A DNA stretch of 64,000 bases, taken from Candidatus Uhrbacteria bacterium (GTDB lineage: Bacteria; Patescibacteriota; Patescibacteriia; UBA9934; GWF2-40-263). The stretch is taken from contig JACRJU010000013.1 of NCBI GenBank assembly GCA_016219925.1, forward strand, positions 102,566 through 166,565. The letters are read 5' to 3'. Below the pieces are notes generated by a model, which searched no databases, had not been told where the DNA came from, and worked only from the letters and a program-made list of their open reading frames with translations. Position numbers and translations under genes: made by a program. Positions 5,067 through 54,963 of the stretch are shown in pieces. Position 1 is the stretch's first letter. Every line of letters starts with the position of its first letter.

Positions 5067-5085
5067 GGTGTGGATAAACAGGTCT

Positions 5086-5139
5086 TTGACGCACAAGATA
5101 TAGTGGTCTATCATAAAAGGTGACCACAATATGTAGTGG
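5086..5139 (+). promoter_or_regulatory. sigma70-type promoter (TTGACG-17-TATCAT) overlapped by two tandem NrdR-box-like 16-bp palindromes
   Basis: TTGACG at 5086-5091, a 17-nt spacer, TATCAT at 5109-5114. Box 1 GCACAAGATATAGTGG (5091-5106) and box 2 CCACAATATGTAGTGG (5124-5139) each match the published NrdR consensus acaCwAtATaTwGtgt at 13/16 positions. They lie 33 bp apart, upstream of a ribonucleotide reductase gene. Confidence 0.5.
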
Positions 5140-5380
5140 GGAAAGGCGTCGTGGCCAGAGACCCTTCCAGGAGTGAATAGGAATGATCCCAACGGGATTG
5201 TTTTTAGTCTGCTTGTGTTGCTTACAAAATGGGCGAGCTATCGGCTGACGCTGCGGTCGTCACCTCACCGTACATCGGTGTACGGCTCGGTGCCGTCCTC
5301 GCGTTGTAGCGATATCTCATCCCATTTTGAAACCAACACGTCTGGTTTTGAGCTGATGTCTGCGTGCTGTCAATCTTCTT

Positions 5381-5449
5381 GCGGTTTGAGCTATGTCGGA
5401 GGGAACAGCGACGAGGAGTCCGCTGGCCCGGAGACATAGCATAAACCGC
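5381..5449 (+). repeat. structured hairpin element copy 1 (17-bp closing stem with 2 mismatches, 36-nt conserved core) inside the nrdJ 5' leader
   Basis: gcggtttgagctatgtc / gacatagcataaaccgc form the closing stem around core GGAGGGAACAGCGACGAGGAGTCCGCTGGCCCGGAG. The core matches copy 2 at 32/36 positions. Confidence 0.55.
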
Positions 5450-5495
5450 AAAACAATACCGCCAACAGTTACTTTACTCCTCTGTTACTTCCTTT

Positions 5496-8400
5496 ATGTC
5501 CGATCAACCGATCTCTAAAGTTCAAGTTTCCTCCTTGGACACGACCAATGTGGCCGACGCGGTTTGGCAATTTATGACCTCCGTAAAATCGTTACGGAAG
5601 CGCGATGGATCAGAACAAGATTTTGATGCTCGCAAACTCACACACTCCATTCGAGCCGCGCTTTTGGCCGCCGGCATGAAGCCTTCGCTTTGCGAGAAGA
5701 TCACCTCGCAAGTCATTTCTCGTCTTACACATCAGTTTGATGGCCACAGTGTGCCGACATTTGCCGATGTGCGCGAAGCCGTTGAGGTGACGCTCATCGA
5801 TAACAATCTGATTCATGTTGCAAAGAAGTACTTGTCTTTTCGCGGATCGGAATCTCGCGCGGCGCAAACCGAGCGTTATGGAAAGGGGATTACTGTTGAT
5901 CGTTTTTTCACCAAAGAAGGCGTTCATCCTTATGACGAGATCGAATGGGAAAAACGTGACGCGGTTATTTCAGGATCCAAAGGGGAGGTTGTATTTGAAC
6001 AGAAAGGAGTTGAAGTTCCAAAATCGTGGACGCAGACTGCGACGAATATCGTTGTTTCAAAATATTTTTTTGGGACGATTGGCAAAGATGATCGCGAATA
6101 TTCGGTAAAACAGTTGGTTCACCGCGTCGCATCCACCATCGCCAACTGGGGTCGCAAGGACGGCTATTTCCAAACCGGAGAAGATGCGCAACATTTCGAA
6201 GACGAGCTTCATCATATTTTGGTCAATCAAATGGCCGCTTTTAACTCACCGGTCTGGTTTAACGTCGGGACGACTCGTCCCCCACAGTGTAGCGCCTGCT
6301 TTATCAATTCTGTTGAAGATGACATGCGTTCTATTTTGAATCTGTGCGTGACGGAAGGTACGTTGTTTAAGGGAGGCTCTGGGACAGGATCCAATCTCTC
6401 TAAACTCCGCTCCAAGCACGAATACTTAAGCGGAAGCAATGGCAAAGCCTCCGGTCCGATTTCGTTTATGAAGGGTCTTGATGCTTTTGCAGGAGTGATT
6501 AAAAGCGGAGGCAAAACGCGTCGAGCGGCCAAAATGGTGATTTTGGATATTACGCATCCCGATATTGACGATTTCATCATGTGTAAGGTGGAGGAAGAAA
6601 AGAAAGCCTGGGCGCTGATGGACGCCGGATACGATGGTTCGATTGACGGTCCGGCTTATGCCTCCATCTATTTTCAAAACGCCAACAACTCGGTGCGCGT
6701 GACGGATGATTTTATGCGCGCGTACGAGACCGACGACTCGTGGGCGACTCGCGCCGTCACAACCGGCGAACCGGTGAAAACCTGGAAAGCGCGCGAGCTC
6801 ATGGATATGATGGCCGATGCGGCATGGCAGTGCGGCGATCCGGGCATTCAATATGATACGACGATCAACGACTGGCACACCTGTTCGAACACGGATCGCA
6901 TTTACGCGTCCAATCCGTGCAGTGAGTACATGTTCCTCAATGACAGCGCTTGCAACCTCGCTTCGCTTAACCTCATGAAGTTTCGCAAGCTCGTCGGGAG
7001 CGAAATGGTGTTTGATGTGGAGTCTTTCAAAAAAGCCAATGAGGTCATCATCACCGCCATGGAAATTATCGTCGGCAATTCGGTCTATCCAACCCCGGCG
7101 ATCGAACAGAACAGCTATGACTACCGCCCACTGGGCATCGGCTACGCCAACCTCGGTGCTTTGCTTATGAGCCGCGGGCTTCCGTATGATTCGGATGCCG
7201 GTCGCAATCTCGCGGCGGCCATCACGTCTTTGCAAAGTGGTCACTGTTATTATCAATCGGCTAAGATTGCGGAAAAAGTCGGACCGTTTGCTGGCTACAA
7301 AGCCAATGAAGATCCTTGTTTGCGTGTGATGCGCAAACATCGCGATGCCTCTTATGAAGTGGCCACCGATGGAGTGCCGGCGGATTTGCTTAGCGCGTCT
7401 CGCGTGGCTTGGGACAATGTCGTTGAGCAGGCGAGCCAGTATGGTTTGCGCAACGCACAAATTAGCGTGATCGCTCCGACAGGAACCATTTCTTTCCTCA
7501 TGGATTGTGATACGACTGGCGTCGAACCGGATATCGCACTTGTGAAATACAAATGGTTGGTTGGGGGTGGGATGTTCAAGATTATCAACAACACAGTTCC
7601 TGAAGTTCTGACGCGTTTGGGATACACCCAAACGGAGCGCGATGATATTTTGGCCTTCATTGAAAAAAACGACACGATTGAAGGAGCTCCGCATGTGAAG
7701 ATCGAACATTTGCCGGTGTTTGATTGTGCGTTCAAGGCGGCCAATGGCACGCGTACGATTCAGTACATGGGTCATGTACGCATGATGGCCGCGGTTCAAC
7801 CGTTTGTTTCCGGCGCCATTTCCAAAACCGTAAACATGCCCCATGAAGCGACCGCGCAAGATATTGCCGACGTTTATGTGCAAGGATGGAAGCTCGGGCT
7901 CAAAGCGATCGCCATTTATCGTGATGGCTCCAAGCGCCAGCAGGCGTTGACGACATCCAAAGAAAGCGACGCGAAGAAACAAAATGAATCTTCTATCGTT
8001 GCGAAAAGCGAACCGAAGGCGAGTGGCGAGGCCATCTCAACGGTTACGACCCAGACTGATCAACGTCTCCGCCGACACCGCCTTTCCGATGAACGACGCG
8101 CCATCACGCACAAGTTTAAGGTCGGGCCGCATGAAGGATATATCACCGTCGGTCTCTATGATGATGGAGCGCCGGGAGAAATTTTTGTCACCATGTCCAA
8201 AGAGGGATCCGTCATTAGCGGACTGATGGATAGTTTTGCAACAGCGATTTCTATCGGCTTGCAATACGGTGTTCCCCTGGAAGTCTTGGTCAATAAATTC
8301 GTTCACATGCGATTTGAACCTTCCGGATATACCAACAACCCCCAAATCCGCATTGCCAAATCCATCACGGATTACATTTTCCGTTGGCTTGCCATCAAGT

Positions 8401-8669
8401 TTTTGCCGCGGGAGTCGCAGATGACTTTGGGCATTAACACGGTGGACGAATCGCTCGACCAGCCTGTGAAAACCGCGGACGAAAAAGTGGAATTCGCGAC
8501 TCCGACCGTTCCACAACCGAAATTATTTGAACGGACACAGAGTGATCACATCCAAACTTTCGATAATCAGTCAGATGCGCCAGCCTGCGACACGTGCGGT
8601 TCGATCATGGTGCGCAATGCCGCCTGTTATAAATGTTTGAATTGTGGGGGAACGAGCGGGTGTAGCTAA
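5496..8669 (+). CDS. nrdJ: adenosylcobalamin-dependent ribonucleoside-diphosphate reductase (class II) with N-terminal ATP-cone and C-terminal Cys4 zinc ribbon
   Basis: 1057 aa. ATP-cone-like N-terminus. NSPVWFNVGT and SNPCSEYMF active-site blocks of class I/II RNR. C-terminal CDTCGS...CYKCLNCGG zinc ribbon. Confidence 0.85.
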   Translation: MSDQPISKVQVSSLDTTNVADAVWQFMTSVKSLRKRDGSEQDFDARKLTHSIRAALLAAGMKPSLCEKITSQVISRLTHQFDGHSVPTFADVREAVEVTLIDNNLIHVAKKYLSFRGSESRAAQTERYGKGITVDRFFTKEGVHPYDEIEWEKRDAVISGSKGEVVFEQKGVEVPKSWTQTATNIVVSKYFFGTIGKDDREYSVKQLVHRVASTIANWGRKDGYFQTGEDAQHFEDELHHILVNQMAAFNSPVWFNVGTTRPPQCSACFINSVEDDMRSILNLCVTEGTLFKGGSGTGSNLSKLRSKHEYLSGSNGKASGPISFMKGLDAFAGVIKSGGKTRRAAKMVILDITHPDIDDFIMCKVEEEKKAWALMDAGYDGSIDGPAYASIYFQNANNSVRVTDDFMRAYETDDSWATRAVTTGEPVKTWKARELMDMMADAAWQCGDPGIQYDTTINDWHTCSNTDRIYASNPCSEYMFLNDSACNLASLNLMKFRKLVGSEMVFDVESFKKANEVIITAMEIIVGNSVYPTPAIEQNSYDYRPLGIGYANLGALLMSRGLPYDSDAGRNLAAAITSLQSGHCYYQSAKIAEKVGPFAGYKANEDPCLRVMRKHRDASYEVATDGVPADLLSASRVAWDNVVEQASQYGLRNAQISVIAPTGTISFLMDCDTTGVEPDIALVKYKWLVGGGMFKIINNTVPEVLTRLGYTQTERDDILAFIEKNDTIEGAPHVKIEHLPVFDCAFKAANGTRTIQYMGHVRMMAAVQPFVSGAISKTVNMPHEATAQDIADVYVQGWKLGLKAIAIYRDGSKRQQALTTSKESDAKKQNESSIVAKSEPKASGEAISTVTTQTDQRLRRHRLSDERRAITHKFKVGPHEGYITVGLYDDGAPGEIFVTMSKEGSVISGLMDSFATAISIGLQYGVPLEVLVNKFVHMRFEPSGYTNNPQIRIAKSITDYIFRWLAIKFLPRESQMTLGINTVDESLDQPVKTADEKVEFATPTVPQPKLFERTQSDHIQTFDNQSDAPACDTCGSIMVRNAACYKCLNCGGTSGCS

Positions 8670-8756: not shown

Positions 8757-8833
8757 GCGATGACGATCTATCCTGCCGGAGGGAACAACGGCGACGAGTC
8801 CGTTGGCCCGGAGGCAGGATAGATCGTCATCGC
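8757..8833 (+). repeat. structured hairpin element copy 2 (perfect 21-bp closing stem, 35-nt conserved core) immediately 3' of nrdJ
   Basis: gcgatgacgatctatcctgcc ... ggcaggatagatcgtcatcgc are perfect reverse complements. The core GGAGGGAACAACGGCGACGAGTCCGTTGGCCCGGAG matches copy 1. Confidence 0.55.
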
Positions 8834-8869
8834 ACTGACAAAACACAACTTTCGTAATTCACAGCTATA

Positions 8870-8898
8870 AAGAGGGCTCATCATGTCCCTCTTTTTTG
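8870..8898 (+). terminator. rho-independent terminator after nrdJ
   Basis: aagaggg-ctcatcatgt-ccctct stem-loop followed by TTTTT. Confidence 0.55.
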
Positions 8899-8925
8899 TT
8901 TTTGTGATAAAATGAGCTCGAACCT

Positions 8926-20898: not shown

Positions 20899-22833
<1,935 letters not shown>

Positions 22834-22851
<18 letters not shown>

Positions 22852-22870
22852 GCTGGGCTTTTTTATTTTA
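22834..22870 (+). terminator. rho-independent terminator overlapping the acs stop codon
   Basis: gcccagc-cttcttcgtga-gctgggc followed by TTTTTTATTTT. Confidence 0.6.
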
Positions 22871-22917
22871 AAAAGGCTCTGTGTGCAGAGGGTTCTCAAG
22901 TGCGCTATACTCTTTTT

Positions 22918-23010
22918 ATGAAAAAGAAAGCCTTTCGCACTTTTTGGATGGTGATTGCCATCCTCGTTATTCTTTCGATGGTGATGTTTATGTTTCAGTT
23001 GGGGTACTAA
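22918..23010 (+). CDS. putative 30-aa hydrophobic peptide (MKKKAFRTFWMVIAILVILSMVMFMFQLGY)
   Basis: An ATG 7 nt downstream of a TATACT -10-like hexamer, encoding a single predicted TM helix. It ends (TAA at 23008) immediately before an AAGGAG at 23012-23017 in the recJ upstream region. Below the ORF-track size cutoff; speculative. Confidence 0.2.
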   Translation: MKKKAFRTFWMVIAILVILSMVMFMFQLGY

Positions 23011-23098
23011 GAAGGAGCTTCTGTCCAAACACTGGCACTTCAACGCCCTCATCGACGATGCCATTCGTCAACAATTCCCGGAGATCCATCCGGTTCTT

Positions 23099-37629: not shown

Positions 37630-39078
37630 ATGGATATTTCTTCTTTGACACTCACTCAAGCCAAATCTTTGTTGGCCGATGGTGATATCACTAGTGAGGC
37701 GCTTGTGAGCGGACATCTCAAGCGTATCGATGAACAAAACGAGAATTTGCACGCCTTGCTTGGCGTTTCAGAACAGGCGCTTGATGAAGCTCGACAGGCA
37801 GACACTCGCAGAGCCAAGGGTGAAGATGGAGGAGTTTTGGCGGGGATTCCGATAGCGATTAAAGATAATATTCTCGTTCAAGGTTGGGAAAACACCAGTT
37901 GCTCGCAAGTGCTTGAGGGACATCGCAGCGCGTATAGCGCCACAGTTGTCGAACGCCTCAAAGCGGCGGGCGCTATTTTGATTGGTCGTACAAACATGGA
38001 CGAATTTGCCATGGGATCCTCTACAGAGTCCTCGCATTTCGGCCCGACGAAAAATCCTTGGGACGCAGAGCGCGTCCCAGGGGGCTCAAGCGGCGGATCC
38101 GCCGCGGCCGTTGCGGCTGGATTTGTTCCGGCCGCTCTGGGTTCTGATACGGGCGGATCGATCCGCCAGCCCGCTTCCCTCTGCGGCGTGGTTGGGCTCA
38201 AACCAACGTACGGACGAGTGTCGCGCTATGGGTTGATGGCCATGGCATCCTCGCTCGATCAAATCGGCCCGATCACACGCACCGTGGAAGATGCGGCGCT
38301 GGTTTTGCAGGTGATCGAAGGAAAGGATCCGCGCGACGCTACCAGTGTTGAACTTCAAGAAACCACCATCCCGGAGCTTATGACCGATTCCTTAGAAGGA
38401 ATGACTTTGGGGATTCCGGACGAATATTTTTTGGAAGGCATGGACGACACGATCAAATCGCTCGTGATGGATGCGGTCGCACAGCTCAAAGAACGCGGCG
38501 CAACGGTTGAAAAAATTTCCATGCCGCATGCGAAGTACGCGCTCGCCGCTTATTATGTGCTGATGCCTTGCGAGGCAAGTTCGAACCTCGGACGATTTGA
38601 TGGTCTGCGATTCGGCTACCATTCCAGCGGCAACACTCTTACCGAAACGTATGAGCGTTCCCGTGGAGAAGGGTTTGGATCAGAAGTGAAGCGGCGGATT
38701 TTGTTGGGATCGTATGCGCTCTCGGCTGGGTATTATGATGCGTATTATCGCAAAGCGCTCAAGGTGCGCACGCTGATCAAGCGCGATTTCGATGACGCGC
38801 TTAAACGGGTGGATGCCATCGTAACTCCGACCAGTCCATGCGTCGCCTGGAAGCTCGGAGAAAAATTCGGCGATCCACTCACGATGTATCTTTCTGACAT
38901 CTACACCATCACCGCGAATCTTGCGACGGTGCCGGCGATTTCTCTGCCATGTGGGTTCTCCGAAGGTCTTCCAGTCGGGTTGCAACTGATGGGTCGCCCA
39001 TTTGATGAGCAGACGCTCTATCGGATTGGCATGGCCTATCAGAAAGTTACAGACTGGCACACCCGAACGCCCGTATGA
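37630..39078 (+). CDS. gatA: Asp-tRNA(Asn)/Glu-tRNA(Gln) amidotransferase subunit A (amidase signature)
   Basis: GIPIAIKDNI, the GGSSGGSAAAVAAG amidase signature, and the Ser-cisSer-Lys triad context. Confidence 0.9.
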   Translation: MDISSLTLTQAKSLLADGDITSEALVSGHLKRIDEQNENLHALLGVSEQALDEARQADTRRAKGEDGGVLAGIPIAIKDNILVQGWENTSCSQVLEGHRSAYSATVVERLKAAGAILIGRTNMDEFAMGSSTESSHFGPTKNPWDAERVPGGSSGGSAAAVAAGFVPAALGSDTGGSIRQPASLCGVVGLKPTYGRVSRYGLMAMASSLDQIGPITRTVEDAALVLQVIEGKDPRDATSVELQETTIPELMTDSLEGMTLGIPDEYFLEGMDDTIKSLVMDAVAQLKERGATVEKISMPHAKYALAAYYVLMPCEASSNLGRFDGLRFGYHSSGNTLTETYERSRGEGFGSEVKRRILLGSYALSAGYYDAYYRKALKVRTLIKRDFDDALKRVDAIVTPTSPCVAWKLGEKFGDPLTMYLSDIYTITANLATVPAISLPCGFSEGLPVGLQLMGRPFDEQTLYRIGMAYQKVTDWHTRTPV

Positions 39079-39827
39079 TTCCTTATTTTCATTTCACGAC
39101 CATTCCTTTGGGCCCCATCACCATCCAGGTGTGGGGTCTTATGGTTGCACTCGGAATTTTGGCTGGCGCCTGGGCGGCAGGGAAGATGGCTAGAACGCGT
39201 GGTCAAGATCCGCAGTTAATTTGGGATCTCACGTTTTGGGTGATCATCGGCGCGTTTTTGTTCGCGCGTCTGTTCCATATTTTTTACGAACCGCAGATGT
39301 ATGCTCAATCTCCTGTTGAGATTTTTAAAATTTGGCACGGCGGTCTTTCCGTGATGGGGGGTTTTTTCGGTGCAGCGCTGTTCGGCATTTTTTTTCTAAA
39401 AAGAAAGCACGCAGATATTTTTGCGTACGCCGATACGGCGGTGTTTGGGCTACCTTTGGGTTTATTCATTGGTCGAATCGGATGTTTTTTGACGCATCTT
39501 CATCCGGGCACACGAACAAGTTTTTTTTTAGGGGTTCTGTATCCTGATGGTGTCAGGCACGATCTTGGCCTTTATCTCTCAATCAACGGACTCATTCTTT
39601 TTCTCGTCTTTCTTGTGTTCGCACGAAGACGTTCGGCTTCGGGGACTTATATGGTCACCTTCTTACTTTGGTACGGCACGGTTCGTTTTTTTCTGGATTT
39701 TCTTCGCGCAACCGATGGCCCGATTGTTGATGCTCGTTACGCTCATCTCACCCCCGCGCAATATGTCGCCATGGTGATGATTGCAGGCGGCCTGTGGTTG
39801 CGATGGTATCGAAAGGCACATCAGTAA
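39075..39827 (+). CDS. lgt: prolipoprotein diacylglyceryl transferase
   Basis: Lgt N-terminal pattern (I.IGPI.I..WGL), the GRIGCF signature region, and about 7 TM helices. Confidence 0.85.
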   Translation: MIPYFHFTTIPLGPITIQVWGLMVALGILAGAWAAGKMARTRGQDPQLIWDLTFWVIIGAFLFARLFHIFYEPQMYAQSPVEIFKIWHGGLSVMGGFFGAALFGIFFLKRKHADIFAYADTAVFGLPLGLFIGRIGCFLTHLHPGTRTSFFLGVLYPDGVRHDLGLYLSINGLILFLVFLVFARRRSASGTYMVTFLLWYGTVRFFLDFLRATDGPIVDARYAHLTPAQYVAMVMIAGGLWLRWYRKAHQ

Positions 39828-39843
39828 TCAGACGGAACGATCC

Positions 39844-39877
39844 CCTGCCGGAGGGAACAACGGCAACGAGTTCGTCG
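39844..39877 (+). repeat. structured hairpin element copy 3 (5' two-thirds only, no closing stem) downstream of lgt
   Basis: The 21-nt stretch cctgccggagggaacaacggc is identical to copy 2 (8771-8791). The element then diverges and lacks the 3' GGCCCGGAG segment. Confidence 0.45.
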
Positions 39878-39981
39878 GATATATCTGTCGAAAAAAAATT
39901 GACAAATTGTTCATTTAAAAATAGCCTGAAATCAGGTTCTTTTTTATCTATCCACATTTTTGTTGAAATTTATTGTTGACT

Positions 39982-40752
39982 ATGTCTAAACCTCCTAAAC
40001 TGACGGTGAAGACACTTGATGCCATTGGCCTTCGACAGAAGGACATGGACGTCTATGTCTCGCTGTTAAAACTTGGGACAGCTCCTTTGCGCAAGCTCGC
40101 AGATGAGTGCAGTCTCAATCGAGGAACGACCTATGATACGCTCAAGCGTCTTTTGGATCTGGGCCTCGTCAGTTTTGTGGATTCGAAAACGCATCGATTC
40201 TTTACGGCGGAAGATCCCAAGAAACTGACAGGGGTTGCCACACGGCGTGAAGTTGCTGTTCAGGAAGCTCGAGGGGATCTGCAAGAAGCGATCCCACACC
40301 TGCAGGAGCTTCTGGGATGGAGTAAGCACCGACCATCGGTGCGCTATTACGAGGGCGAGGTGGGCGTGCGGGATATTTTGGAAGACCTTCTGAAGACGTG
40401 CGCCCACGCGTCCGACAAAATGTATCGGGTGTATTCTTCTGCGGGCGTGCGCGATCTGATCTTGCACGCGTGGCCGGGATTCACCAAAACGCGCATTCAA
40501 AAAAAAATTCGCGTCAAAGCGATCGCGGTTGGAGAAGGGGGCCGCACGTTCGGACTTGATGAGCGCCGTTGGCTCTCGCACGAACAGCAATCCCCAACGT
40601 ACATTTTCATCTATCAACACAAAACGGCTTATATCTCCGTGGATGATCATCGCGAATTGTTTGGAGTGGTGATCGAAGACGATGCTATCACCTTGACCCA
40701 GACGATGATTTTTGATTCACTGTGGGGTCAGCTTTCCAAGGAGGATGAATGA
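39982..40752 (+). CDS. TrmB-family transcriptional regulator (N-terminal wHTH)
   Basis: N-terminal LDAIGL...VY..LLKLG.APLRKLA......R.TTYD.LKRL...GLV, with a TrmB-like C-terminal sugar-sensing-type domain. The ORF-track start at 39973 is TTG; ATG at 39982. Confidence 0.55.
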   Translation: MSKPPKLTVKTLDAIGLRQKDMDVYVSLLKLGTAPLRKLADECSLNRGTTYDTLKRLLDLGLVSFVDSKTHRFFTAEDPKKLTGVATRREVAVQEARGDLQEAIPHLQELLGWSKHRPSVRYYEGEVGVRDILEDLLKTCAHASDKMYRVYSSAGVRDLILHAWPGFTKTRIQKKIRVKAIAVGEGGRTFGLDERRWLSHEQQSPTYIFIYQHKTAYISVDDHRELFGVVIEDDAITLTQTMIFDSLWGQLSKEDE

Positions 40753-41972: not shown

Positions 41973-43079
41973 ATGAATGTTTTACGTATTGGCCTCATTG
42001 GAGCCGGATATATTGGACGTGAACACGCGCGCTGTCTGCGACTCATCGCTCCGTTGTTTGACGGGAAGGTTCAAGTGCTCGCCATTGCGGATACGAACAA
42101 ACAGGCCGCGCAGTTTGCGGCTCGCCAGTTTGCTATTCCGGTTGCAACGGCGAATGTGGATGAGGTGATCGATCACCCAGAGATCAATGTGATCTTTAGC
42201 TGTGTCCCGACCAAATTTCATCTTGATGTCATGCAAAAAGCGGTGGCAAAAGGTAAAGCCGTTTTTTGTGAAAAGCCCTTTGCGGTTTCGCTTGAGGACG
42301 CTCATCGTCTGCATGATCTTTTAACCAAAAACCAAACCCCTCATCAAGTGGGGTTTGTGCTTCGTTACGCGCCGACGTACCACGCACTCAAAAAAATGCT
42401 CGTAACGCACGCTGACGTCTCACCGTTGCGCACGGTGATTTTGCGCGACGATCAAGTGTTTCCGATTCAAGGGATTTCGCATTTTACCGATTGGCGCAGT
42501 CGCGTGGAGCTTGCGGGCGCGGGAGTTTTGATCGAACACGGGATCCACGATATTGATTTATTTGAGTGGTTATTTGGGCCCATCAAACGAGTGAGCGCGC
42601 GCATGAGTAATTTCGCCGGCTATCCCGGTATCGAGGATTACATCGAGATTCGTATGGAGTTTGAAAGCGGGGTCAGCGCTAACATGATTCATGTATGGCA
42701 TGAGATCGGGGCGCATCAATCCATTCGTCATTTTGAAATTTTCTTCCAAAAGGCTCTCATCACGCTCGATACGTACGACATGCATCACATAAACGTGCGC
42801 GATCAAGAAGCGGAAAAAACCTACGAGCGTCCGGATTTATTCAAACTCGTAAAAGACGATCCGTTGTTTACCGATGTGGCTGACCGTGAAGATTTGTTAT
42901 TTGTCAGCGATTATTACGCTCTACAAGATTATTGGTTTGTAAGAAATCTGCTTGAGGACAAGCCGCTTTTCCCAACCATCCAAGATGGATTGCGCGCATT
43001 TACGCTTGCGTACGCTTGTTACGAGAGCGCAAAAAAAGACGGCGCATGGGTTGCGACGTCTTCAAAAAAACCGGCTTAA
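41973..43079 (+). CDS. Gfo/Idh/MocA-family NAD(P)-dependent oxidoreductase
   Basis: LRIGLIGAGYIGREH Rossmann fold, with the EKP motif (FCEKPFA) characteristic of the family. Confidence 0.8.
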   Translation: MNVLRIGLIGAGYIGREHARCLRLIAPLFDGKVQVLAIADTNKQAAQFAARQFAIPVATANVDEVIDHPEINVIFSCVPTKFHLDVMQKAVAKGKAVFCEKPFAVSLEDAHRLHDLLTKNQTPHQVGFVLRYAPTYHALKKMLVTHADVSPLRTVILRDDQVFPIQGISHFTDWRSRVELAGAGVLIEHGIHDIDLFEWLFGPIKRVSARMSNFAGYPGIEDYIEIRMEFESGVSANMIHVWHEIGAHQSIRHFEIFFQKALITLDTYDMHHINVRDQEAEKTYERPDLFKLVKDDPLFTDVADREDLLFVSDYYALQDYWFVRNLLEDKPLFPTIQDGLRAFTLAYACYESAKKDGAWVATSSKKPA

Positions 43080-43445
43080 GAAATTTTTCTTTTTGGGAAT
43101 CAGCGCTGACGGCGGAGTGACGGATGATTTGAGCGATTCAACGAACTGTACGAGACGCGCCATTTCGCGCTGGACAATCGGACCCTCATACTCGCCCGAG
43201 TGCGCATGAGCCCCTTCGTAGCTCGCTTCTTTTTGATCGACATGCAAGTTGATTTGCATGCCTTGGTTTTTATCTTCAGCGTAGGCGTGATAGCGGGGGA
43301 ATCGTTCTCCGGTCACGCGCCGAATAAAACTGATCTGTCCGCTTCGCGTGCGCTGTTCGCCATAGCCGGCGCGACGCATAAGGTTGCGCGTGTGATCGGA
43401 CAAGGGTCCGGCGATCCAATGTTGCATACATGCTGATCGTACCAT
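43062..43445 (-). CDS. hypothetical His-rich small protein, paralog B of a tandem pair
   Basis: Shares the blocks RR.., FPR[FY]HAY, QI[DN]LH[FV]D, YEG, EM.R[IL] and PPS with the adjacent upstream gene. Its ATG directly abuts the upstream stop (TAAATG). Confidence 0.5.
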   Translation of the reverse strand: MVRSACMQHWIAGPLSDHTRNLMRRAGYGEQRTRSGQISFIRRVTGERFPRYHAYAEDKNQGMQINLHVDQKEASYEGAHAHSGEYEGPIVQREMARLVQFVESLKSSVTPPSALIPKKKNFLSRFF

Positions 43446-43835
43446 TTATTTGAAGAGCATATCAAACCAGTTTTGTTCTTTTGATGGAGGGGAGGCGGGA
43501 CGTGTGAGACGTTCGGTTCCGGCAACGCGAGGGACGTGGTCTTCGAGAATTTCGGTGATGCGACGCATCTCATCAGACACTCGGCTTCCCTCATAAGCCC
43601 ATGTTTGATCGTGATTTCCTTTGTGTCCAATGGGATCAAGCGCGTCGAAATGAAGATCGATTTGTAGTTTGTTTGCTATCTCAATCGAGTAGGCGTGGAA
43701 CCGAGGGAACGCTGGATCATTCAGCCGTCGGTGATAACACGGTCGGCCATCTTTGGCGCAATGATAATCATATCCGATGCGTTTCATGGCGGCTTCGATC
43801 GAGACGTGGGGAGAAAGTGTAAAAGACTTTCTCAT
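43446..43835 (-). CDS. hypothetical His-rich small protein, paralog A of a tandem pair
   Basis: See paralog B. 129 aa. A TTGACA -35-like hexamer lies upstream. Confidence 0.5.
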   Translation of the reverse strand: MRKSFTLSPHVSIEAAMKRIGYDYHCAKDGRPCYHRRLNDPAFPRFHAYSIEIANKLQIDLHFDALDPIGHKGNHDQTWAYEGSRVSDEMRRITEILEDHVPRVAGTERLTRPASPPSKEQNWFDMLFK

Positions 43836-43917: not shown

Positions 43918-44559
43918 CTAGGGAGACTCGCGGCGGTGGCAGGCCTTGTCGTAGGCGGAACTGCCGATCAGCACGCGGTTGAGCTTGTCGCTCGAGGTCA
44001 GGTAGAGCTGGAGCGTGTCGTCGTTGACGTGTGGGAGGGGGACGTATTTCCCCCTGTGCGCGGTTGCGAACGCTTGACGCTCTGCCTCGTCTTGAAAGAA
44101 GAAACCGTGACGGCCACGGATTGCGTTTTCGACCTGGACGAAGTCGTCGCACGAGAGCGCGTCGATGGCTTCCTTGGGGATGCGCTCGTTGTCGAATACG
44201 TGTTGGATGGCGACTTCCAGGGCAGTCGGCGTGGCCGAGGCCGGAAGCGGTTGCGCATCGCTTTGGCCAGGAGCGGTGTCCGCGAGCGATCCCGCGTCGG
44301 GTTCTCCGACTCCCAGCGCGTCCGCGGCCATCGCCGCATCTGCGCTGTCCGGCGCGCTGCCTGCATCCGGCTGGCCGATCGAGCTGGTGTCGGTCGCCGC
44401 GGAAGCCGTGGCATCATTGATGTCCGAACCGGCATCGACGATCGAGGCCGCATGGTCCGGTTCTGCGGCGGAGGCCCTCATGATGAGGTGCCAGGGCAGG
44501 ACGAGCACGGCGGCGAAAAGCACCGCCAATGCCGTGCGAGAGAACGTGGATGGGTTCAC
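43918..44559 (-). CDS. secreted Ala/Asp-rich protein with a C-terminal conserved domain (possibly YARHG-like)
   Basis: GTG start at 44559 with SD AGAGGTG 4 nt upstream. Signal peptide MNPSTFSRTALAVLFAAVLVLPWHLIMRASA. A low-complexity A/D/S linker, then a C-terminal FVQVENAIRGRHGFFFQ block. About 66% GC. Confidence 0.5.
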   Translation of the reverse strand: MNPSTFSRTALAVLFAAVLVLPWHLIMRASAAEPDHAASIVDAGSDINDATASAATDTSSIGQPDAGSAPDSADAAMAADALGVGEPDAGSLADTAPGQSDAQPLPASATPTALEVAIQHVFDNERIPKEAIDALSCDDFVQVENAIRGRHGFFFQDEAERQAFATAHRGKYVPLPHVNDDTLQLYLTSSDKLNRVLIGSSAYDKACHRRESP

Positions 44560-44625
44560 GGAGCACCTCTTGATATCTGGACGAGGAATTTCGCCAGGAA
44601 AATAACTTACAGATAGTATGGGGAA

Positions 44626-44935: not shown

Positions 44936-44979
44936 TTCGTTTAATGTAAAAACCGGCCCGTGGGGTCGGTGGTGATGTG

Positions 44980-45783
44980 TCACGTCTGCATCGGCGCGAC
45001 GTGGATCTTTCCTCGTTGGTCGGACGTTTTGGCGTTTCGCAGCTGAGCGTCTGCGCTCTCGAACAGACGTTCGAAGATGCCTTCGACACTGCTACCGGGA
45101 ATGATGATCTGGCTTGCCACGCCGATCGTCACCCCTTGGTGAATGGCGGTGCCGCCGACCATGCATGGTCCGGCTTGCGTGTTGTGCACGATCCGGTTGG
45201 CAACGTATTCGCCGTTGTTCACGACCGCAGTCCATGTCGGATCGACACCTCCGCTTTGGTCAAAAGCGGAAGATGCCAGGTCGCGGTCACGATGTCCGGC
45301 GCGTTCGGCCGGCGGCTGGCTGGCGGAAGTGAAGACAACGAATTCCTCGCCGCCCCATCGAACCACAACGTCCGAACCACGCAGCCATCGCTTGAGAATG
45401 TTGGCGAACCAGATGAGTACGTGATCGCCCGTCGTGTGTCCGTACTGTTTGTTCACGCGACCGCAGTAGTCGAGATCGAGCACGAGCACGGAGACGGTCC
45501 CGTGAAAGGGCACGCCGCCGATGCGGCTCAGTCGTTCAGAGATCATCTGTCGCCCAGGCTCTCGTCGCAGGAGGCCTGTGAGCGGACAGTGAATCTCCCG
45601 AGTGTTCTGTTGCATGAGCAGGGTGCGGCCGGCTGTACTCCGGACGAACGTTTCGATGATGTTCCTGTCGCTGGCTGTGGGGAAGATTCCGGTTTGGTCT
45701 TCCAATCCGCCAGGGTACCGCAGAACGAGTTCTCCTTCCGGTGTGTACCGGATGGAAACCCCATTGCCGTTTTGACTTCCCAT
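44980..45783 (-). CDS. GGDEF-domain diguanylate cyclase (no recognisable sensor domain)
   Basis: The RWGGEEF active-site (GGEEF) motif with upstream D..D..N GGDEF blocks. A 267-aa protein, about 63% GC. Confidence 0.75.
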   Translation of the reverse strand: MGSQNGNGVSIRYTPEGELVLRYPGGLEDQTGIFPTASDRNIIETFVRSTAGRTLLMQQNTREIHCPLTGLLRREPGRQMISERLSRIGGVPFHGTVSVLVLDLDYCGRVNKQYGHTTGDHVLIWFANILKRWLRGSDVVVRWGGEEFVVFTSASQPPAERAGHRDRDLASSAFDQSGGVDPTWTAVVNNGEYVANRIVHNTQAGPCMVGGTAIHQGVTIGVASQIIIPGSSVEGIFERLFESADAQLRNAKTSDQRGKIHVAPMQT

Positions 45784-45904
45784 GTCCTACCTCATGACCT
45801 CTATTGAGAGGGTGACCGTCCACCCTAGCTCAAAAATAGGAAATTGTCAACTGATCGTGTTCAGTATTCTTTGCGCTTGGGGGTGAATAAGGTAGGCTGT
45901 GATC

Positions 45905-51190: not shown

Positions 51191-51537
51191 AGGATCTTTA
51201 TTTTAACCTCTTGACAGCCTCTTGCAAGGCCGTTCTAGGGTAGGTATCATAGTTCCACTAAATCATAACGTATTTGCGTATACGTATGTTGCTTCCATAC
51301 AGTTTCGTCATGGACGATGAAGACTGGGGATCTGACGACGACGAGGACAAAGAGGGTATGGGTTCCGACGTCGAAGAGAGTGATGACGCTGATGACGATG
51401 GTGACGACGCCGATGGTGGGGAAGAGTGGTAGATATAAAACAGACCTTTCATAGGTCTGTTTTTCTATTGACGAAAGGAGGTATTTCATGTACGATAGCG
51501 ACGCCGCAACGGGATAAGGCTAAAGACTTTTGGAGGA

Positions 51538-52290
51538 ATGATGAAATTCGTGCGGATCAGGTGGTTCGTCAAGACGTGGCTCATGAACCGACGGTTCAAG
51601 TCACTCGATGGCCTTTCCAGGCGCGTCGCGCGCTGGCTCACCGACCACTGGACGGCCAACCAGATCACGCTTCTGGGTGTCGCGCTGTGTGTGCCCATGA
51701 CGGCGTTGTTCTGGGCAGACCTGTACTTTCCCGCTTCCGTTCTGCTGACGTTGAGCCTGCTCACCGACTTCGCCGACGGGGCCCTCGCGCATTACCAGCA
51801 AGGTCTGCGCCCGCCCATGTCGCTCGAAGAAGAGCGACGCCTTACGCTCAAACAGCGCATCGACTACCGCGGGGTCACGCATCTGGGCAAAGCCTTCGAC
51901 CCCGTTGTCGACAAGGTTCGGTTCTTCTGCGTCGTCTACGCGCTCGGCTGGGGCATCGTCAACACCGGCCTCGTTATCGCCCTTACGGTCGTGGCGGTGA
52001 CCCTCACGGTCATCCGGCCGATCAAGCGTTGGATGAAGATGGGCGATGCCAGGTCCAACCGCTTTGGCAAGTTCAAGATCTGGGCGGAGATCGCGGCGCT
52101 CGCGCTTCTGATCATCCATCCGACCAGTACAGTGCTTCTTCACCTCACCTTCGCTGTGGCTCTGGCGTTCGGATGCTTCTCGCTTCTGGGACACCTGCTT
52201 GCCGCCTACGTGGCCCTGCGCACGCGTCGCGCCTCGCGCCGCCGTTCGCGCGCTTCTCGCCGTGTACAGCCCGCGACGGTCGACTCCTGA
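51538..52290 (+). CDS. CDP-alcohol phosphatidyltransferase family protein
   Basis: D..DG..AR...G.....D...D pattern (DFADGALAHYQQG...GKAFDPVVDK) within 5-6 TM helices. GGAGG lies 4 nt before the ATG. About 64% GC. Confidence 0.65.
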   Translation: MMKFVRIRWFVKTWLMNRRFKSLDGLSRRVARWLTDHWTANQITLLGVALCVPMTALFWADLYFPASVLLTLSLLTDFADGALAHYQQGLRPPMSLEEERRLTLKQRIDYRGVTHLGKAFDPVVDKVRFFCVVYALGWGIVNTGLVIALTVVAVTLTVIRPIKRWMKMGDARSNRFGKFKIWAEIAALALLIIHPTSTVLLHLTFAVALAFGCFSLLGHLLAAYVALRTRRASRRRSRASRRVQPATVDS

Positions 52291-52317
52291 CTCCTCCCAG
52301 GGGTCTTTTTTTGACTC

Positions 52318-52346
52318 TTGTCAGAGGGGAGAAGGGTTGTTATAAT
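52318..52346 (+). promoter_or_regulatory. sigma70 promoter TTGTCA-17-TATAAT driving tRNA-Asn
   Basis: TTGTCA 52318-52323, TATAAT 52341-52346. The tRNA begins about 80 nt downstream, after two small leader hairpins. Confidence 0.5.
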
Positions 52347-52427
52347 CCTGGCGGTCCCCTGTCATTGCGAAGGAGGTTCAAGCGATTGAAGCCATTTCCG
52401 CACTGTGGAAATCGTCAGACAATTTAT

Positions 52428-52502
52428 TCCGGGGTAGCTCAGCGGCAGAGCGGCTCGCTGTTAACGAGATGGTCGTGGGTTCGATCCCCACCCCCGGAGC
52501 CA
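52428..52502 (+). tRNA. tRNA-Asn (anticodon GTT), CCA encoded
   Basis: TCCGGGGTAGCTCAGCGGCAGAGCGGCTCGCTGTTAACGAGATGGTCGTGGGTTCGATCCCCACCCCCGGAGCCA. The anticodon loop is CTGTTAA and the T-loop TTCGATC. Lies inside a spurious long ORF (51426..52715). Confidence 0.85.
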
Positions 52503-52582
52503 AGCAGGTCGGTCAGTCGAAAGACTGGTCGTTTTGTTTTGTATGGTAAACTTATTCTCAAAATGTCTATAGACAAACTGAT

Positions 52583-52978
52583 ATGCCTCCAGATCTTCAA
52601 CTCCATCATTGCGCCAAGCAGATTACACGAGGCCGTTTGGATTTCGTGCTTCGTCTGTTTGAGCACCTCGGCTGTCAAATTTTTTATCGCGAAGAGGGCG
52701 CGACCTGGGCGATGATCGGACAGGCCGGTTTACGCTTCAGCATTCAGTTTATTGAATGCGACCGAACGCCGATTCCCATTGAACTCAAACGAGAAAATCA
52801 TGTCGCCTTTATTTCATCAGATCCGCAACAAGAGATGGCGAGGATTGAGCAGTGGATTAAAGCTGAAGGCAAAACGATTGTTACGGGTTCATGGTCAACA
52901 AAGGAACACTATTTCGATTGCCCCGACGTATTCGTTGATTTTGTGGTTGAAATTATGCATCGATCCATTGTCGAATAG
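52583..52978 (+). CDS. hypothetical protein, possibly VOC (glyoxalase/bleomycin-resistance-like) fold
   Basis: 131 aa with an alternating beta/alpha pattern and conserved His/Glu positions (HHCAK, HVAF, E..H). Weak assignment. Confidence 0.35.
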   Translation: MPPDLQLHHCAKQITRGRLDFVLRLFEHLGCQIFYREEGATWAMIGQAGLRFSIQFIECDRTPIPIELKRENHVAFISSDPQQEMARIEQWIKAEGKTIVTGSWSTKEHYFDCPDVFVDFVVEIMHRSIVE

Positions 52979-52986
52979 CAGACTTT

Positions 52987-53859
52987 ATGAACCGAAAATT
53001 CCTTTCCCTTTTTGTCGTCATTGTCGTTTTGTTTATTTTTTGGGTTGTCTACGCTCTTTATTCAACCACAGAGAAATCCAACACATCTCTCAGCGGATGG
53101 TTTATAGGGAATCAGATTTGGAGTGGACATATTTTTGTGACTGGTGATGTTGAAATTTTGGGGCGCCTTACTGTTTTGCCTGGGACAAAGGTGACCTTTT
53201 CTGTCGGTGATGATCGTCAGCGAGGGGATGAGGTGCCGGCTGACGGTTTTAATGATAAAGATCCCACACGACTGAAGTCGTACTCGACAACTCACTCGAG
53301 TCTTTTTGTGTTGAGAGAATTTATGGCCATCGGTACTCAAAACCAACCGATTTTGTTTACTTCAGTTGCAGAACAACCTCAAGTGGCGGATTGGGAGGCT
53401 ATCATTTTTCAGGGTGATGGGAGCATTGTGGATCACACCATTGTTGAATATACTCGCAACGGACTGAATCCTATCGGTAAACAACCGCACAGTATTATTC
53501 AAAACACGATATCGCGACATGCATTTTGGGGAGCGATATCTTCGGCACATTCAAATATAAAGATAGTGAACAATATTTTGTCTGATGCTGGACATGAAGG
53601 GATTGATCTCAAGTTCGACGGCGACCAAGAAATTACTGGCAACAAGATTGATGATTGTCATACAGGTATCGCGTCTATCTCCGGCTTCCAGCTCATCAAA
53701 AATAACACCATTAAAAACTGCGGCGATGGTGTCTACATCAGTCCACAATCAAAAGCCATCTCCGTTGACAACACGTTTACGTCCGCCCCTGCAGAAAGTC
53801 GCCGCGTTTGGCGATACGGGGATTATGAAATTCCAATTTTTGGCGATCCTGAAATTTAA
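52987..53859 (+). CDS. membrane-anchored right-handed parallel beta-helix repeat protein
   Basis: N-terminal TM helix, then repeated G.D/N-containing turns (NNILSDAGHEGIDL, GNKIDDCHTGIA, NNTIKNCGDGVYI) typical of pectate-lyase-like beta-helices. Confidence 0.5.
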   Translation: MNRKFLSLFVVIVVLFIFWVVYALYSTTEKSNTSLSGWFIGNQIWSGHIFVTGDVEILGRLTVLPGTKVTFSVGDDRQRGDEVPADGFNDKDPTRLKSYSTTHSSLFVLREFMAIGTQNQPILFTSVAEQPQVADWEAIIFQGDGSIVDHTIVEYTRNGLNPIGKQPHSIIQNTISRHAFWGAISSAHSNIKIVNNILSDAGHEGIDLKFDGDQEITGNKIDDCHTGIASISGFQLIKNNTIKNCGDGVYISPQSKAISVDNTFTSAPAESRRVWRYGDYEIPIFGDPEI

Positions 53860-53894
53860 AAAAATCCAGAGCCGGAAGCTCTGGGGAAGAAGGC

Positions 53895-54781
53895 CTACCA
53901 CTCGGAGGCGACGACGTGATCGAGGAACGTGCCGAGTTGCGGGGCGCGTGCTTGGGCCGCCGCGGTGATCTCCGCATGGCTGGGCAGATCGTGGTCGTCG
54001 GTGACGATGAAGGCCGCGAAGACCTGCATGGCGCCTCTCGCGTTGTCCATGTTCTCGAGCGCGATGAGTCGAAGTTCGGGATCGAGCGACATCCCGACCG
54101 TGTCGACCCCCACGACTTCCAGAGGCGGCGTTCGAAAGCTCCTCCGAAGCCGGGACCGGGAATCATGATGTGTACACCTCTGTCCAGCGCATTCAATCCG
54201 GCGCGCGCGGCGGCCTCGGTAAAGGTGCTTCGGATCAGAGGGCGGTCGACCCCGGACTCTTTGTGAAAGAGCCAGAGGAGGTGTTCGGACATGACGAATT
54301 CTGCTTCGGCGCCGTTCAGATACGGCATGGGCAGATGCGCACTGACGAGCGTCGTCGGTTGAACGACCGTTCCCGTTTTTGCCGTGGCCGAGATGCCTCC
54401 GACGGAGCTGGTGATGACGATTCGTGTGCCAGCGCCCTTGAGCGCGAGCAGGACCGACATCCATCTGCGAATTAGCGATTCCATTCCAGCCCGTTCTTGG
54501 TACAGATGCACCCGCCCTTGGCTGATCACAACCTTGCGGTCGTGCCAAGTTCCGAGAAGGAACTTGTTGGGGTGGCCAGCGCCGTTTCCGGCGGCGATGC
54601 CGACTTGTTGGAAGGTCAGCTCTTGTTCTGGCACGAAACCTCTGTCGACCAAAACAGCTGGATCCGACCAGCCCGTTCCCAGAACGAGAGCGAGTCGATC
54701 TGGGGTCGATGCTGGGTCCAGACCCGCATCACGCAGAATGCGTTGTCCGGACTTCATGAGTCGTCCCACGAGAGCCTCCAT
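53895..54781 (-). pseudogene. purine nucleoside phosphorylase (PNP/MTAP family) disrupted by a frameshift near 54130
   Basis: The N-terminal two-thirds (MEALVGRLMKS...LVLGTGW...SQGRVHLYQE...GPGFGGAFE) sit in one frame (ORF 53777..54889). The conserved C-terminal third (TPPLEVVGVDTVGMSLDPELRLIA...FIVTDDHD) sits in another frame (ORF 53895..54548). The two frames meet at about 54125-54140. Could alternatively be a sequencing error. Confidence 0.55.
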
Positions 54782-54848
54782 ACACGGCAAGAGCGTGCTG
54801 GCTGATCTTATCAAGGAAAACAACAAAGTCAATTGAGGTCTAGTCACA

Positions 54849-54877
54849 TTGACAAAAAACCCTCTTTCGCGTATACT
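54849..54877 (+). promoter_or_regulatory. consensus sigma70 promoter TTGACA-17-TATACT for csp, followed by an about 85-nt 5' UTR
   Basis: TTGACA 54849-54854, TATACT 54872-54877. A long 5' UTR is typical of cold-shock genes. Confidence 0.55.
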
Positions 54878-54963
54878 CATGGCACGCAAAACGACTCAAC
54901 GTGGAGATCCAACAAATTTCCCACAAGAGGCGAAATTTGTGGATAATTCACCTAACGCAACCT

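What the first reader, a model, noticed from the sequence alone, without database searches (positions are those of the whole stretch)
39844..39877. Third, truncated copy of the hairpin core downstream of lgt
A 21-nt stretch, cctgccggagggaacaacggc, is identical to copy 2 (8771-8791). It is followed by a diverged aacgagttcgtcgg, and the 3' GGCCCGGAG and closing stem are missing. This shows the element is dispersed, here at a gene 3' end before the TrmB-like regulator promoter. It can also decay, which would fit a mobile or recently duplicated element more than an essential cis-regulator at this site.
Basis: seen in the sequence. Interest (0 to 1): 0.5.

Follow-up and report, generated by a model that had tools for sequence, protein, structure and literature searches.

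The report
Decayed copy of a palindromic repeat
The flagged stretch is a broken, internally deleted copy of a previously undescribed ~80-base hairpin repeat that is scattered through the small genomes of Uhrbacteria and related bacteria, even in frame inside essential genes, and whose intact copies keep a 35-base core almost unchanged.

Summary

The copy is not truncated. It spans about 39831-39890, keeps both outer arms, and has lost about 12 nt (CCCGGAGGCAGG) from the 3' core. The covariance model does not detect it.

It belongs to a 63-86-nt hairpin family with three parts:
- arm pairs of 14-25 bp that differ between copies but stay complementary;
- a 3x3 GGA/GGA loop and a GGG/CCC helix;
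- a covarying apical stem.

I found more than 50 copies in Uhrbacteria and Parcubacteria genomes and in metagenomes, roughly one per 30 kb. None were in Rfam, phages, plasmids or the searchable literature.

Copies lie in either orientation relative to neighbouring genes. Some sit in frame inside tgt, pheT, queA and an HD-domain gene. So this is not an nrdJ or lgt cis-regulator. It is a REPIN/RPE-like dispersed repeat.

Two results argue against plain junk:
- In five orthologous tgt genes the core is 94% identical at synonymous sites, against 50% for the rest of the gene.
- Arm mismatches are G·T 60 versus A·C 13 on the GGAGGG strand.

This suggests a single-stranded form recognised by an unknown partner.

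The parts
39831..39890 (+). Copy 3: degenerate, internally deleted member of the hairpin-repeat family. 5' arm remnant 39831-39849, core remnant 39850-39878, 3' arm remnant about 39877-39890.
   Evidence: Alignment to copy 2. Weak fold. Not detected by model R1. It fills exactly the gap between the lgt stop codon (39825-39827) and a block conserved in relatives.
39844..39864 (+). The 21-nt stretch identical to copy 2.
   Evidence: two exact matches in the window, 0 expected.
8757..8833 (+). Copy 2: intact 77-nt hairpin with a 21-bp perfect arm pair and core at 8778-8813. It lies 88 nt after the nrdJ stop codon.
   Evidence: I13; -59.5 kcal/mol, z = -9.5; 87.3 bits. Absent at the same place in relative L001.
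5379..5451 (+). Copy 1: intact 73-nt hairpin with core at 5398-5433, in the nrdJ 5' leader. It lies inside an insertion of about 230 nt relative to L001.
   Evidence: -44.5 kcal/mol, z = -7.4; 77.1 bits.
39075..39827 (+). lgt (prolipoprotein diacylglyceryl transferase), the gene upstream of copy 3.
   Evidence: Pfam LGT, 2.6e-48.
39891..39960 (+). Conserved lgt-trmB intergenic block: A-run, TTGACAAA, the palindrome AGCCTGAAATCAGG followed by a T-run, and TATCCAC. It is host sequence, not part of the repeat.
   Evidence: Conserved in L058 and L060. Terminator-like hit at 39923-39938.
39982..40752 (+). TrmB-family regulator gene downstream of copy 3.
   Evidence: Pfam TrmB, 2.5e-11.
5496..8669 (+). 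nrdJ (class II, B12-dependent ribonucleotide reductase), flanked by copies 1 and 2.
   Evidence: 100% identity to an NCBI Candidatus Uhrbacteria protein. Pfam domains PF02867, PF08471, PF03477 and PF12637.

Best explanation
Window 39831-39890 is a dead copy of a non-autonomous palindromic repeat family. The family is native to Candidatus Uhrbacteria and related Patescibacteria.

An intact member is a 63-86-nt hairpin. It has 14-25 bp of arms whose sequence differs between copies and subfamilies but stays complementary. These enclose a 35/36-nt asymmetric core: GGA | GGG | AA | 6-bp stem with a 7-8-nt loop | G | CCC | GGA.

Shown:
- The family spreads or persists at the DNA level, at about one copy per 30 kb.
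- Copies lie in intergenic spacers in either orientation.
- Copies also lie in frame in permissive loops of conserved proteins (Tgt, PheT, QueA, an HD-domain protein), as Rickettsia palindromic elements do.
- Copies die by small deletions, as copy 3 did through a deletion of about 12 nt. L063 and L014:6807 show the same kind of decay.

Inferred:
- The strand carrying GGAGGGAAC must fold as a single strand (ssDNA, or an RNA intermediate).
- A sequence-specific trans-acting protein, not yet identified, recognises the purine-rich core. This could resemble the REPIN/RAYT relationship.
- That recognition would explain why the core is held constant in place while the arms drift with compensating changes.

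At the lgt-trmB site the remnant most likely does nothing. Copies 1 and 2 are lineage-specific insertions into the nrdJ leader and trailer, not conserved nrdJ regulators.

The confidence of 0.7 is a blend: about 0.9 that copy 3 is a decayed member of a dispersed palindromic repeat family, and about 0.5 for the inferred mechanism (a folded single strand recognised by a trans-acting protein).
For: Family and structure:
- A pattern scan of genomes found about 22 true members in 6 MAGs, plus about 12 chance hits, as expected.
- Model R1 found 30, 20 and 8 hits in successive locus sets.
- Covariation: 88% of cells paired versus 66% in shuffles, 22 pairs with double changes, and 0 of 500 shuffles reach the observed score.

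Not a cis-regulator:
- No Rfam match.
- Orientation relative to genes is about 12 sense versus 13 antisense.
- Both orientations occur within single 8-kb loci.
- There is no link to GC skew, 12 versus 18.
- Relatives lack the copies next to nrdJ and lgt.

In-frame copies in genes:
- tgt, pheT, queA and an HD-domain gene.
- Among 120 Tgt homologues, 12 carry the element antisense and 6 carry it sense at the same loop. The DNA was confirmed for 7 of them.

Constraint in place:
- In 5 tgt orthologues with 70-94% amino-acid identity, core synonymous third positions are 94% identical versus 50% elsewhere (Fisher p = 1.6e-23).
- Nucleotide identity is 94% in the core, 52% in the arms and 72% in the rest of the gene.

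Strand-specific folding:
- Arm mismatches are G·T 60 versus A·C 13 (p = 2e-8).
- The GGAGGG strand folds better than its complement in all 7 tgt copies, whatever their orientation.

Decay:
- Copy 3.
- L014:6807 versus its intact orthologue in L055.
- L063 versus L061.
Against: - No mobilising enzyme was found. No protein family recurs near copies, and no transposase, reverse transcriptase or HUH domain appears in the window ORFs scanned against Pfam (about 50 of 55).
- No target-site duplication or conserved termini were seen, so transposition itself is not demonstrated.
- Strong conservation of the core in place is not what a purely selfish insert predicts.
- Pairs of orthologues used are not independent, and two of the five were originally found with the core pattern.
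- Gene maps are from simple ORF calls.
- The taxonomic labels of some MAGs ('Gammaproteobacteria', 'Bacteroidia') are unverified.
Confidence: 0.7

Rival explanations
1. Purely selfish, MITE-like junk. Copies are recent neutral insertions that simply decay. The core looks conserved only because copies are young or were found with a core pattern.
For: - Copies 2 and 3 are near-identical in the 5' arm and core, which suggests recent duplication.
- L006:6012 and L008:2010 are near-identical copies at different loci in one genome.
- Copies are absent next to nrdJ and lgt in relatives.
- Decayed copies exist.
Against: - tgt orthologues found by protein similarity keep the element at the same loop across 70-94% amino-acid identity, with 94% synonymous identity in the core versus 50% in the gene.
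- Remnants are rare.
- The core stays about 67% G+C in genomes with 37% G+C.
Confidence: 0.15
2. A structured RNA: a cis-regulatory hairpin at gene ends (terminator, stabiliser or riboswitch-like), or a family of small RNA genes.
For: - Strong covariation, tolerance of G·U pairs, and conserved purine-rich internal loops typical of protein-binding RNAs.
- Many copies abut stop codons.
- Copies 1-3 are co-oriented with their neighbouring genes.
Against: - About half of the copies are antisense to flanking genes, and most in-gene copies are antisense.
- The same tgt loop and the same dnaJ-tgt spacer carry the element in opposite orientations in different lineages.
- No U-run follows the hairpin, and copy 2 has a separate terminator-like hairpin downstream.
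- Upstream flanks show no shared promoter-like motif by eye.
- No Rfam family matches.
Confidence: 0.12
3. Concerted evolution. Gene conversion among the roughly 30 genomic copies, seeded in the identical core, keeps cores uniform without any function at individual sites.
For: - Conservation falls off outward from the core: the inner arm CATGTC is semi-conserved and the outer arms are free.
- Orthologous copies L055 and L014:6807 differ by subfamily-type core changes, as if one had been replaced.
Against: - The core is only 35 nt, at the lower limit for homologous recombination (established knowledge of RecA minimal pairing).
- The same consensus is kept in lineages that do not exchange copies and that differ in G+C by 20 points. 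This still requires selection on the consensus.
Confidence: 0.13

Closest known systems
REP sequences and REPINs mobilised by RAYT transposases (Bertels & Rainey; PMC3116915, PMC3337134, PMC8049555, bioRxiv 10.1101/2021.07.10.451892)
   Same: - Short, non-autonomous, hairpin-forming repeats present in tens of copies.
- Long-term vertical persistence.
- Hairpin maintained by compensating changes.
- No coding capacity.
- Presumed recognition as a folded single strand.
   Different: - In REPINs the inverted REP arms are the conserved part and the spacer varies. Here the arms vary and the central 35/36-nt spacer is conserved.
- REPs are extragenic, whereas these also sit in frame in genes.
- No RAYT gene was found or could be searched for genome-wide.
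- The host is Patescibacteria.
Rickettsia palindromic elements (RPE; Ogata et al. 2000, 2002, as summarised in PMC10969869)
   Same: Palindromic repeats dispersed in a small genome, at about one per 30 kb. A large fraction is inserted in frame in unrelated housekeeping genes and translated as surface-loop peptides.
   Different: - RPEs are about 100-150 bp and occur in Rickettsia.
- No sequence relationship was tested.
- This family has a compact asymmetric core with nucleotide-level constraint and occurs in both orientations at the same protein loop.
Bacterial MITEs (review PMC10969869)
   Same: Small, non-coding, repeated, able to fold into a hairpin, found in and between genes.
   Different: No conserved terminal inverted repeats, no target-site duplication, and no related autonomous IS element were seen.

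Membership tests
REP/REPIN-RAYT | Conserved 20-40-nt REP arms (often with a 5' GTAG) in inverted orientation around a variable spacer | tested here: not met
   Arms are copy- or subfamily-specific (52% identity among tgt orthologues). The central 35/36 nt is the conserved part.
REP/REPIN-RAYT | A single-copy RAYT (Y1 transposase) gene in the same genome, flanked by the repeats | tested here: inconclusive
   None among the window ORFs scanned with Pfam and no recurrent neighbouring protein. Only 64 kb of a contig of at least 282 kb, plus 8-kb loci, could be examined.
REP/REPIN-RAYT | Long-term vertical persistence of copies at orthologous sites | tested here: met
   The tgt-loop and pheT copies are shared by genomes with 70-94% protein identity.
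Rickettsia palindromic elements | Palindromic repeat inserted in frame in unrelated protein genes and read through | tested here: met
   tgt, pheT, queA and an HD-domain gene. The ORFs continue in frame on both sides, and alignments to solved Tgt and QueA structures show the insert as a loop.
Rickettsia palindromic elements | Sequence homology to RPE-1 to RPE-10, and a length of about 100-150 bp | not tested
   No RPE sequences were available for comparison. The length here is 63-86 nt.
MITE | Conserved terminal inverted repeats and target-site duplications | tested here: not met
   Hairpin ends and lengths vary, and the flanks show no direct repeats.
Riboswitch / cis-regulatory leader RNA | Fixed position and orientation upstream of functionally related genes, conserved across relatives | tested here: not met
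   Neighbours are unrelated and both orientations occur. Absent from nrdJ leaders of relatives, which instead keep NrdR-box-like palindromes. No Rfam hit.
Intrinsic terminator | G+C-rich hairpin immediately followed by a U-run | tested here: not met
   No T-run follows copies 1-3. A separate terminator-like site lies downstream of copy 3, and the fold of 8757-8905 shows a separate hairpin plus T-run downstream of copy 2.
Kink-turn RNA motif | 3-nt bulge followed by tandem G·A/A·G pairs in register with the flanking helix | tested here: not met
   The K-turn register needs an A at alignment column 61. It is G or C in 8 of 25 copies, and it conflicts with the covarying pair 23-61.

The most novel reading that the evidence does not exclude
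The repeat is not junk. It is one half of a persistent two-part system new to the Candidate Phyla Radiation: a strand-specific folded DNA (or RNA) hairpin whose 35-nt purine-rich core is the recognition site of an unidentified host-encoded protein. Selection holds the core constant at each site, even inside essential genes and in either orientation, and the element can flip or re-enter at the same permissive sites.
Probability: 0.3. Interest if true: 0.75.

Novelty: new variant of a known kind. Interest (0 to 1): 0.55.

Why it matters
- For this window, it prevents copies 1-3 from being annotated as an nrdJ or lgt riboswitch or regulator.
- It documents a REPIN/RPE-like repeat family in Patescibacteria. 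The full-text library searched here holds no report of MITE-, REP- or RPE-like repeats in that group.
- The family adds 20-28-residue loops to essential enzymes such as Tgt, PheT and QueA.
- Its core is conserved in place far beyond neutral expectation. That gives a concrete 35-nt bait for finding the protein that recognises it.
- It offers a test case for whether small bacterial repeats are parasites or maintained partners.

Tried and rejected
- **Rfam:** at gathering and permissive thresholds it returned only tRNAs and spurious miRNA-like hairpin hits.
- **K-turn reading of the GGA/GGA loop:** rejected because it conflicts with covarying pairs.
- **Resemblance to SRP RNA helix 8, the RNase P CR-I region, the sarcin-ricin loop and twister:** considered from memory only and dropped. 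There was no model hit and the loop varies.
- **Own promoter for an sRNA:** AT-rich left flanks turned out to be stop codons of upstream genes.
- **Target-site duplication or consensus target:** none found.
- **Recurrent neighbouring gene or autonomous parent:** none found.
- **Transposase in the window:** none found.
- **Orientation versus replication (GC skew):** no relation.
- **Phage, plasmid or viral carriers:** none found.
- **In-situ flip at the L005/L007 orthologous spacer:** the insertion points differ by about 50 nt, so independent insertion cannot be excluded.
- **Hairpin A (5224-5342) as a second repeat family:** no other copy in the held sequence.
- **Taxonomy of the 'Gammaproteobacteria' MAG:** could not be checked.

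Full report
**Observation**

The 21-mer CCTGCCGGAGGGAACAACGGC occurs at 39844-39864 and at 8772-8792 and nowhere else in the window. This holds with up to 3 mismatches allowed, and 0 matches are expected in shuffles.

A repeat search groups three sites: 5392-5426, 8772-8806 and 39844-39878.

Copies 1 (5379-5451) and 2 (8757-8833) fold into the same shape. It consists of:
- a long closing helix of 18 or 21 bp;
- a 3x3 internal loop GGA/GGA;
- a GGG/CCC helix;
- an AA/G loop;
- a 6-bp apical stem with a 7-8-nt loop.

Their energies are -44.5 and -59.5 kcal/mol, with z-scores of -7.4 and -9.5. Copy 3 folds weakly (z = -2.0).

Copy 3 is not simply cut off. A gapped alignment to copy 2 scores 70.5, against a shuffle maximum of 37. 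It recovers the 5' arm, two-thirds of the core and the 3' arm, separated by an internal deletion of about 12 nt that removes CCCGGAGGCAGG.

**Setting in the window**

The window comes from a Candidatus Uhrbacteria contig of 281,942 nt, shown by a 100% identical NrdJ protein.

- Copy 1 lies in the leader of nrdJ (5496-8669).
- Copy 2 lies 88 nt after the nrdJ stop codon, upstream of a separate terminator-like hairpin.
- Copy 3 lies between lgt (Pfam LGT) and a TrmB-family gene.

Relatives with 74-82% identical NrdJ keep the promoter, two NrdR-box-like palindromes and a conserved leader. They have no such hairpin before or after nrdJ.

The lgt-trmB spacer of relatives keeps a conserved block: TTGACAAA, a palindrome, and TATCCAC. 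In L058 this block starts at the lgt stop codon. In the window, copy 3 fills exactly the extra 60 nt.

All three copies are therefore lineage-specific insertions.

**The family**

A genome-collection scan for GGAGGGAACA-N12-22-TGGCCCGGAG returned 34 loci.
- About 22 have a 35/36-nt core flanked by long inverted repeats. They cluster in six MAGs: three labelled Uhrbacteria or 'bacterium', one Parcubacteria, and two labelled Gammaproteobacteria.
- The rest have other spacings and no stem, which matches the number expected by chance.

On 25 copies the proposed structure is 88% paired, against 66% in shuffles. It has 22 pairs with changes on both sides, and sliding the partners destroys the signal.

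A covariance model built from them found:
- 30 copies in the first loci;
- 20 in 19 metagenome loci;
- 8 in six tgt loci.

It found only copies 1 and 2 in the window, even with filters off.

Extra copies inside loci fetched for another copy give a density of roughly one per 30 kb.

There were no matches in Rfam, IMG/VR, phage or plasmid records, or the searchable literature on repeats in Patescibacteria.

**Not a cis-regulatory RNA**

- From ORF maps, about 12 copies are co-oriented with their neighbouring genes and about 13 are antisense, with 5 ambiguous.
- Single 8-kb loci hold both orientations.
- There is no relation to GC skew.
- No protein family recurs next to copies.

Several copies lie inside conserved genes and are read through in frame:
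- pheT in two sister genomes;
- tgt;
- queA;
- an HD-domain gene, in the sense orientation.

These rest. Alignment to solved Tgt and QueA structures shows the insert as extra loop residues.

Among the 120 Tgt homologues listed, the loop between LRWAKRCK.. and LFGIVQG is 5-6 residues in the empty state.
- It carries the element antisense in 12 proteins (..SPGHRTVAAVPSD..).
- It carries the element sense in 6 (..SEGTTATVRRPGD..).
- A few proteins show remnants.
- Others show unrelated palindromic inserts.

The DNA of seven of these genes confirms complete hairpins in both orientations. The dnaJ-tgt spacer also holds the element in opposite orientations in different lineages.

**Signs of constraint**

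In five orthologous tgt genes (70-94% amino-acid identity outside the insert), third positions of synonymous codons are 94% identical in the 13 core codons and 50% in the rest of the gene. Overall nucleotide identity is 94% in the core, 52% in the arms and 72% in the rest of the gene.

The arms stay complementary in every orthologue.

Across 53 distinct copies, arm mismatches on the GGAGGG strand are G·T 60 versus A·C 13 (p = 2e-8). Twenty-eight copies lean to G·T and 4 to A·C. The GGAGGG strand folds better than its complement in all seven tgt copies, whichever strand is coding.

The core stays G+C-rich in genomes of 37% G+C.

So one particular strand must fold, independently of transcription and replication direction, and the core is held constant at individual sites.

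Caveats:
- Orthologue pairs are not independent.
- Two of the five tgt copies were first found with the core pattern.
- Gene conversion among copies is an alternative to site-level selection.

**Decay**

Copies do die.
- L014:6807 has lost its 5' arm, while its orthologue in L055 (90% identical flanks) is intact.
- L063 has lost the core and one arm by deletion between CATGTC repeats, relative to L061.
- Window copy 3 lost about 12 nt.

In 518 kb of held sequence, copy 3 was the only remnant that blastn-short detected apart from model hits.

**Interpretation**

The finding is a relic of a dispersed palindromic repeat. The family behaves like Rickettsia palindromic elements in its in-frame insertions (PMC10969869). 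It behaves like REPINs in its persistence and hairpin maintenance (PMC3116915, PMC8049555). It differs from both in having variable arms around a conserved asymmetric centre.

No transposase or other partner was found in the window ORFs scanned. No target duplication was seen. The mechanism of spread and the reason for core conservation are therefore inferred, not shown.

Noticed in passing
window 5075-5215; L001 9815-9945; L003 3850-3990; L004 9640-9800: The nrdJ leader is conserved among Uhrbacteria. It has a promoter-like TTGACG, two NrdR-box-like palindromes (cacaagatatagtgg and ccacaatatgtagtgg), then GTGGGGAA..CCTTCCAGGAG..GATGATCC-loop-GGATTGTTTTT, a terminator-like hairpin. This may be an attenuator. 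There is no Rfam hit.
   Followed up: partly
window 5224-5342: A second, unrelated long hairpin (-57.7 kcal/mol for 5215-5350) lies just upstream of copy 1, inside the same insertion of about 230 nt relative to L001. No other copy exists in any held sequence.
   Followed up: partly
window 39891-39960; L058 3752-3815; L060 3815-3885: A conserved block lies between lgt and the TrmB-family gene: A-run, TTGACAAA, the palindrome AATAGCCTGAAATCAGGCTATT followed by a T-run, and TATCCAC. It is either a terminator or the regulator's own promoter and operator.
   Followed up: partly
Tgt homologues P0255, P0282, P0289, P0326, P0327 and others: The same Tgt loop carries other, unrelated inserts in other lineages. 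One family translates as RHCEEG..RRPTKQSS..EIASVA.LPRND, whose DNA ends resemble the GTCATTGCGAGG arms of one subfamily of this repeat. The loop appears to be a general permissive site or hot spot for palindromic inserts.
   Followed up: no
L009 1612-1824; L035 941-1151; L031 858-998: A non-coding segment of about 140-210 nt is repeated within and between two Uhrbacteria genomes (74-79% identity). In two cases it directly abuts a hairpin copy. It contains a tRNA T-arm-like GATCGTTCGAATCC. There is no Rfam hit at gathering threshold.
   Followed up: partly
L061 1715-1830 versus L063: L061 has a partial tandem duplication of the element's 3' arm (..CATGTCAGACATGGCGTCGCC..). L063 looks like its deletion derivative, with the core removed between CATGTC direct repeats.
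   Followed up: partly
L003 3690-3845; L004 9800-9925: Other long inverted repeats, unrelated in sequence, sit next to the nrdJ leader in two relatives. This spacer seems to collect hairpin inserts.
   Followed up: no
NrdJ homologues P0004, P0011, P0031, P0068, P0072: Several close NrdJ relatives are about 1360-1430 aa long and carry intein or LAGLIDADG domains (PF14528, PF14890). The window's nrdJ has none.
   Followed up: no
window 43065-43445 and 43449-43835 (- strand): Two adjacent paralogous ORFs of about 128 aa have no Pfam match. ORFs at 20911-23064 (-), 43936-44613, 44977-45804, 51426-52712 and 53780-54889 (-) also have no Pfam match.
   Followed up: no
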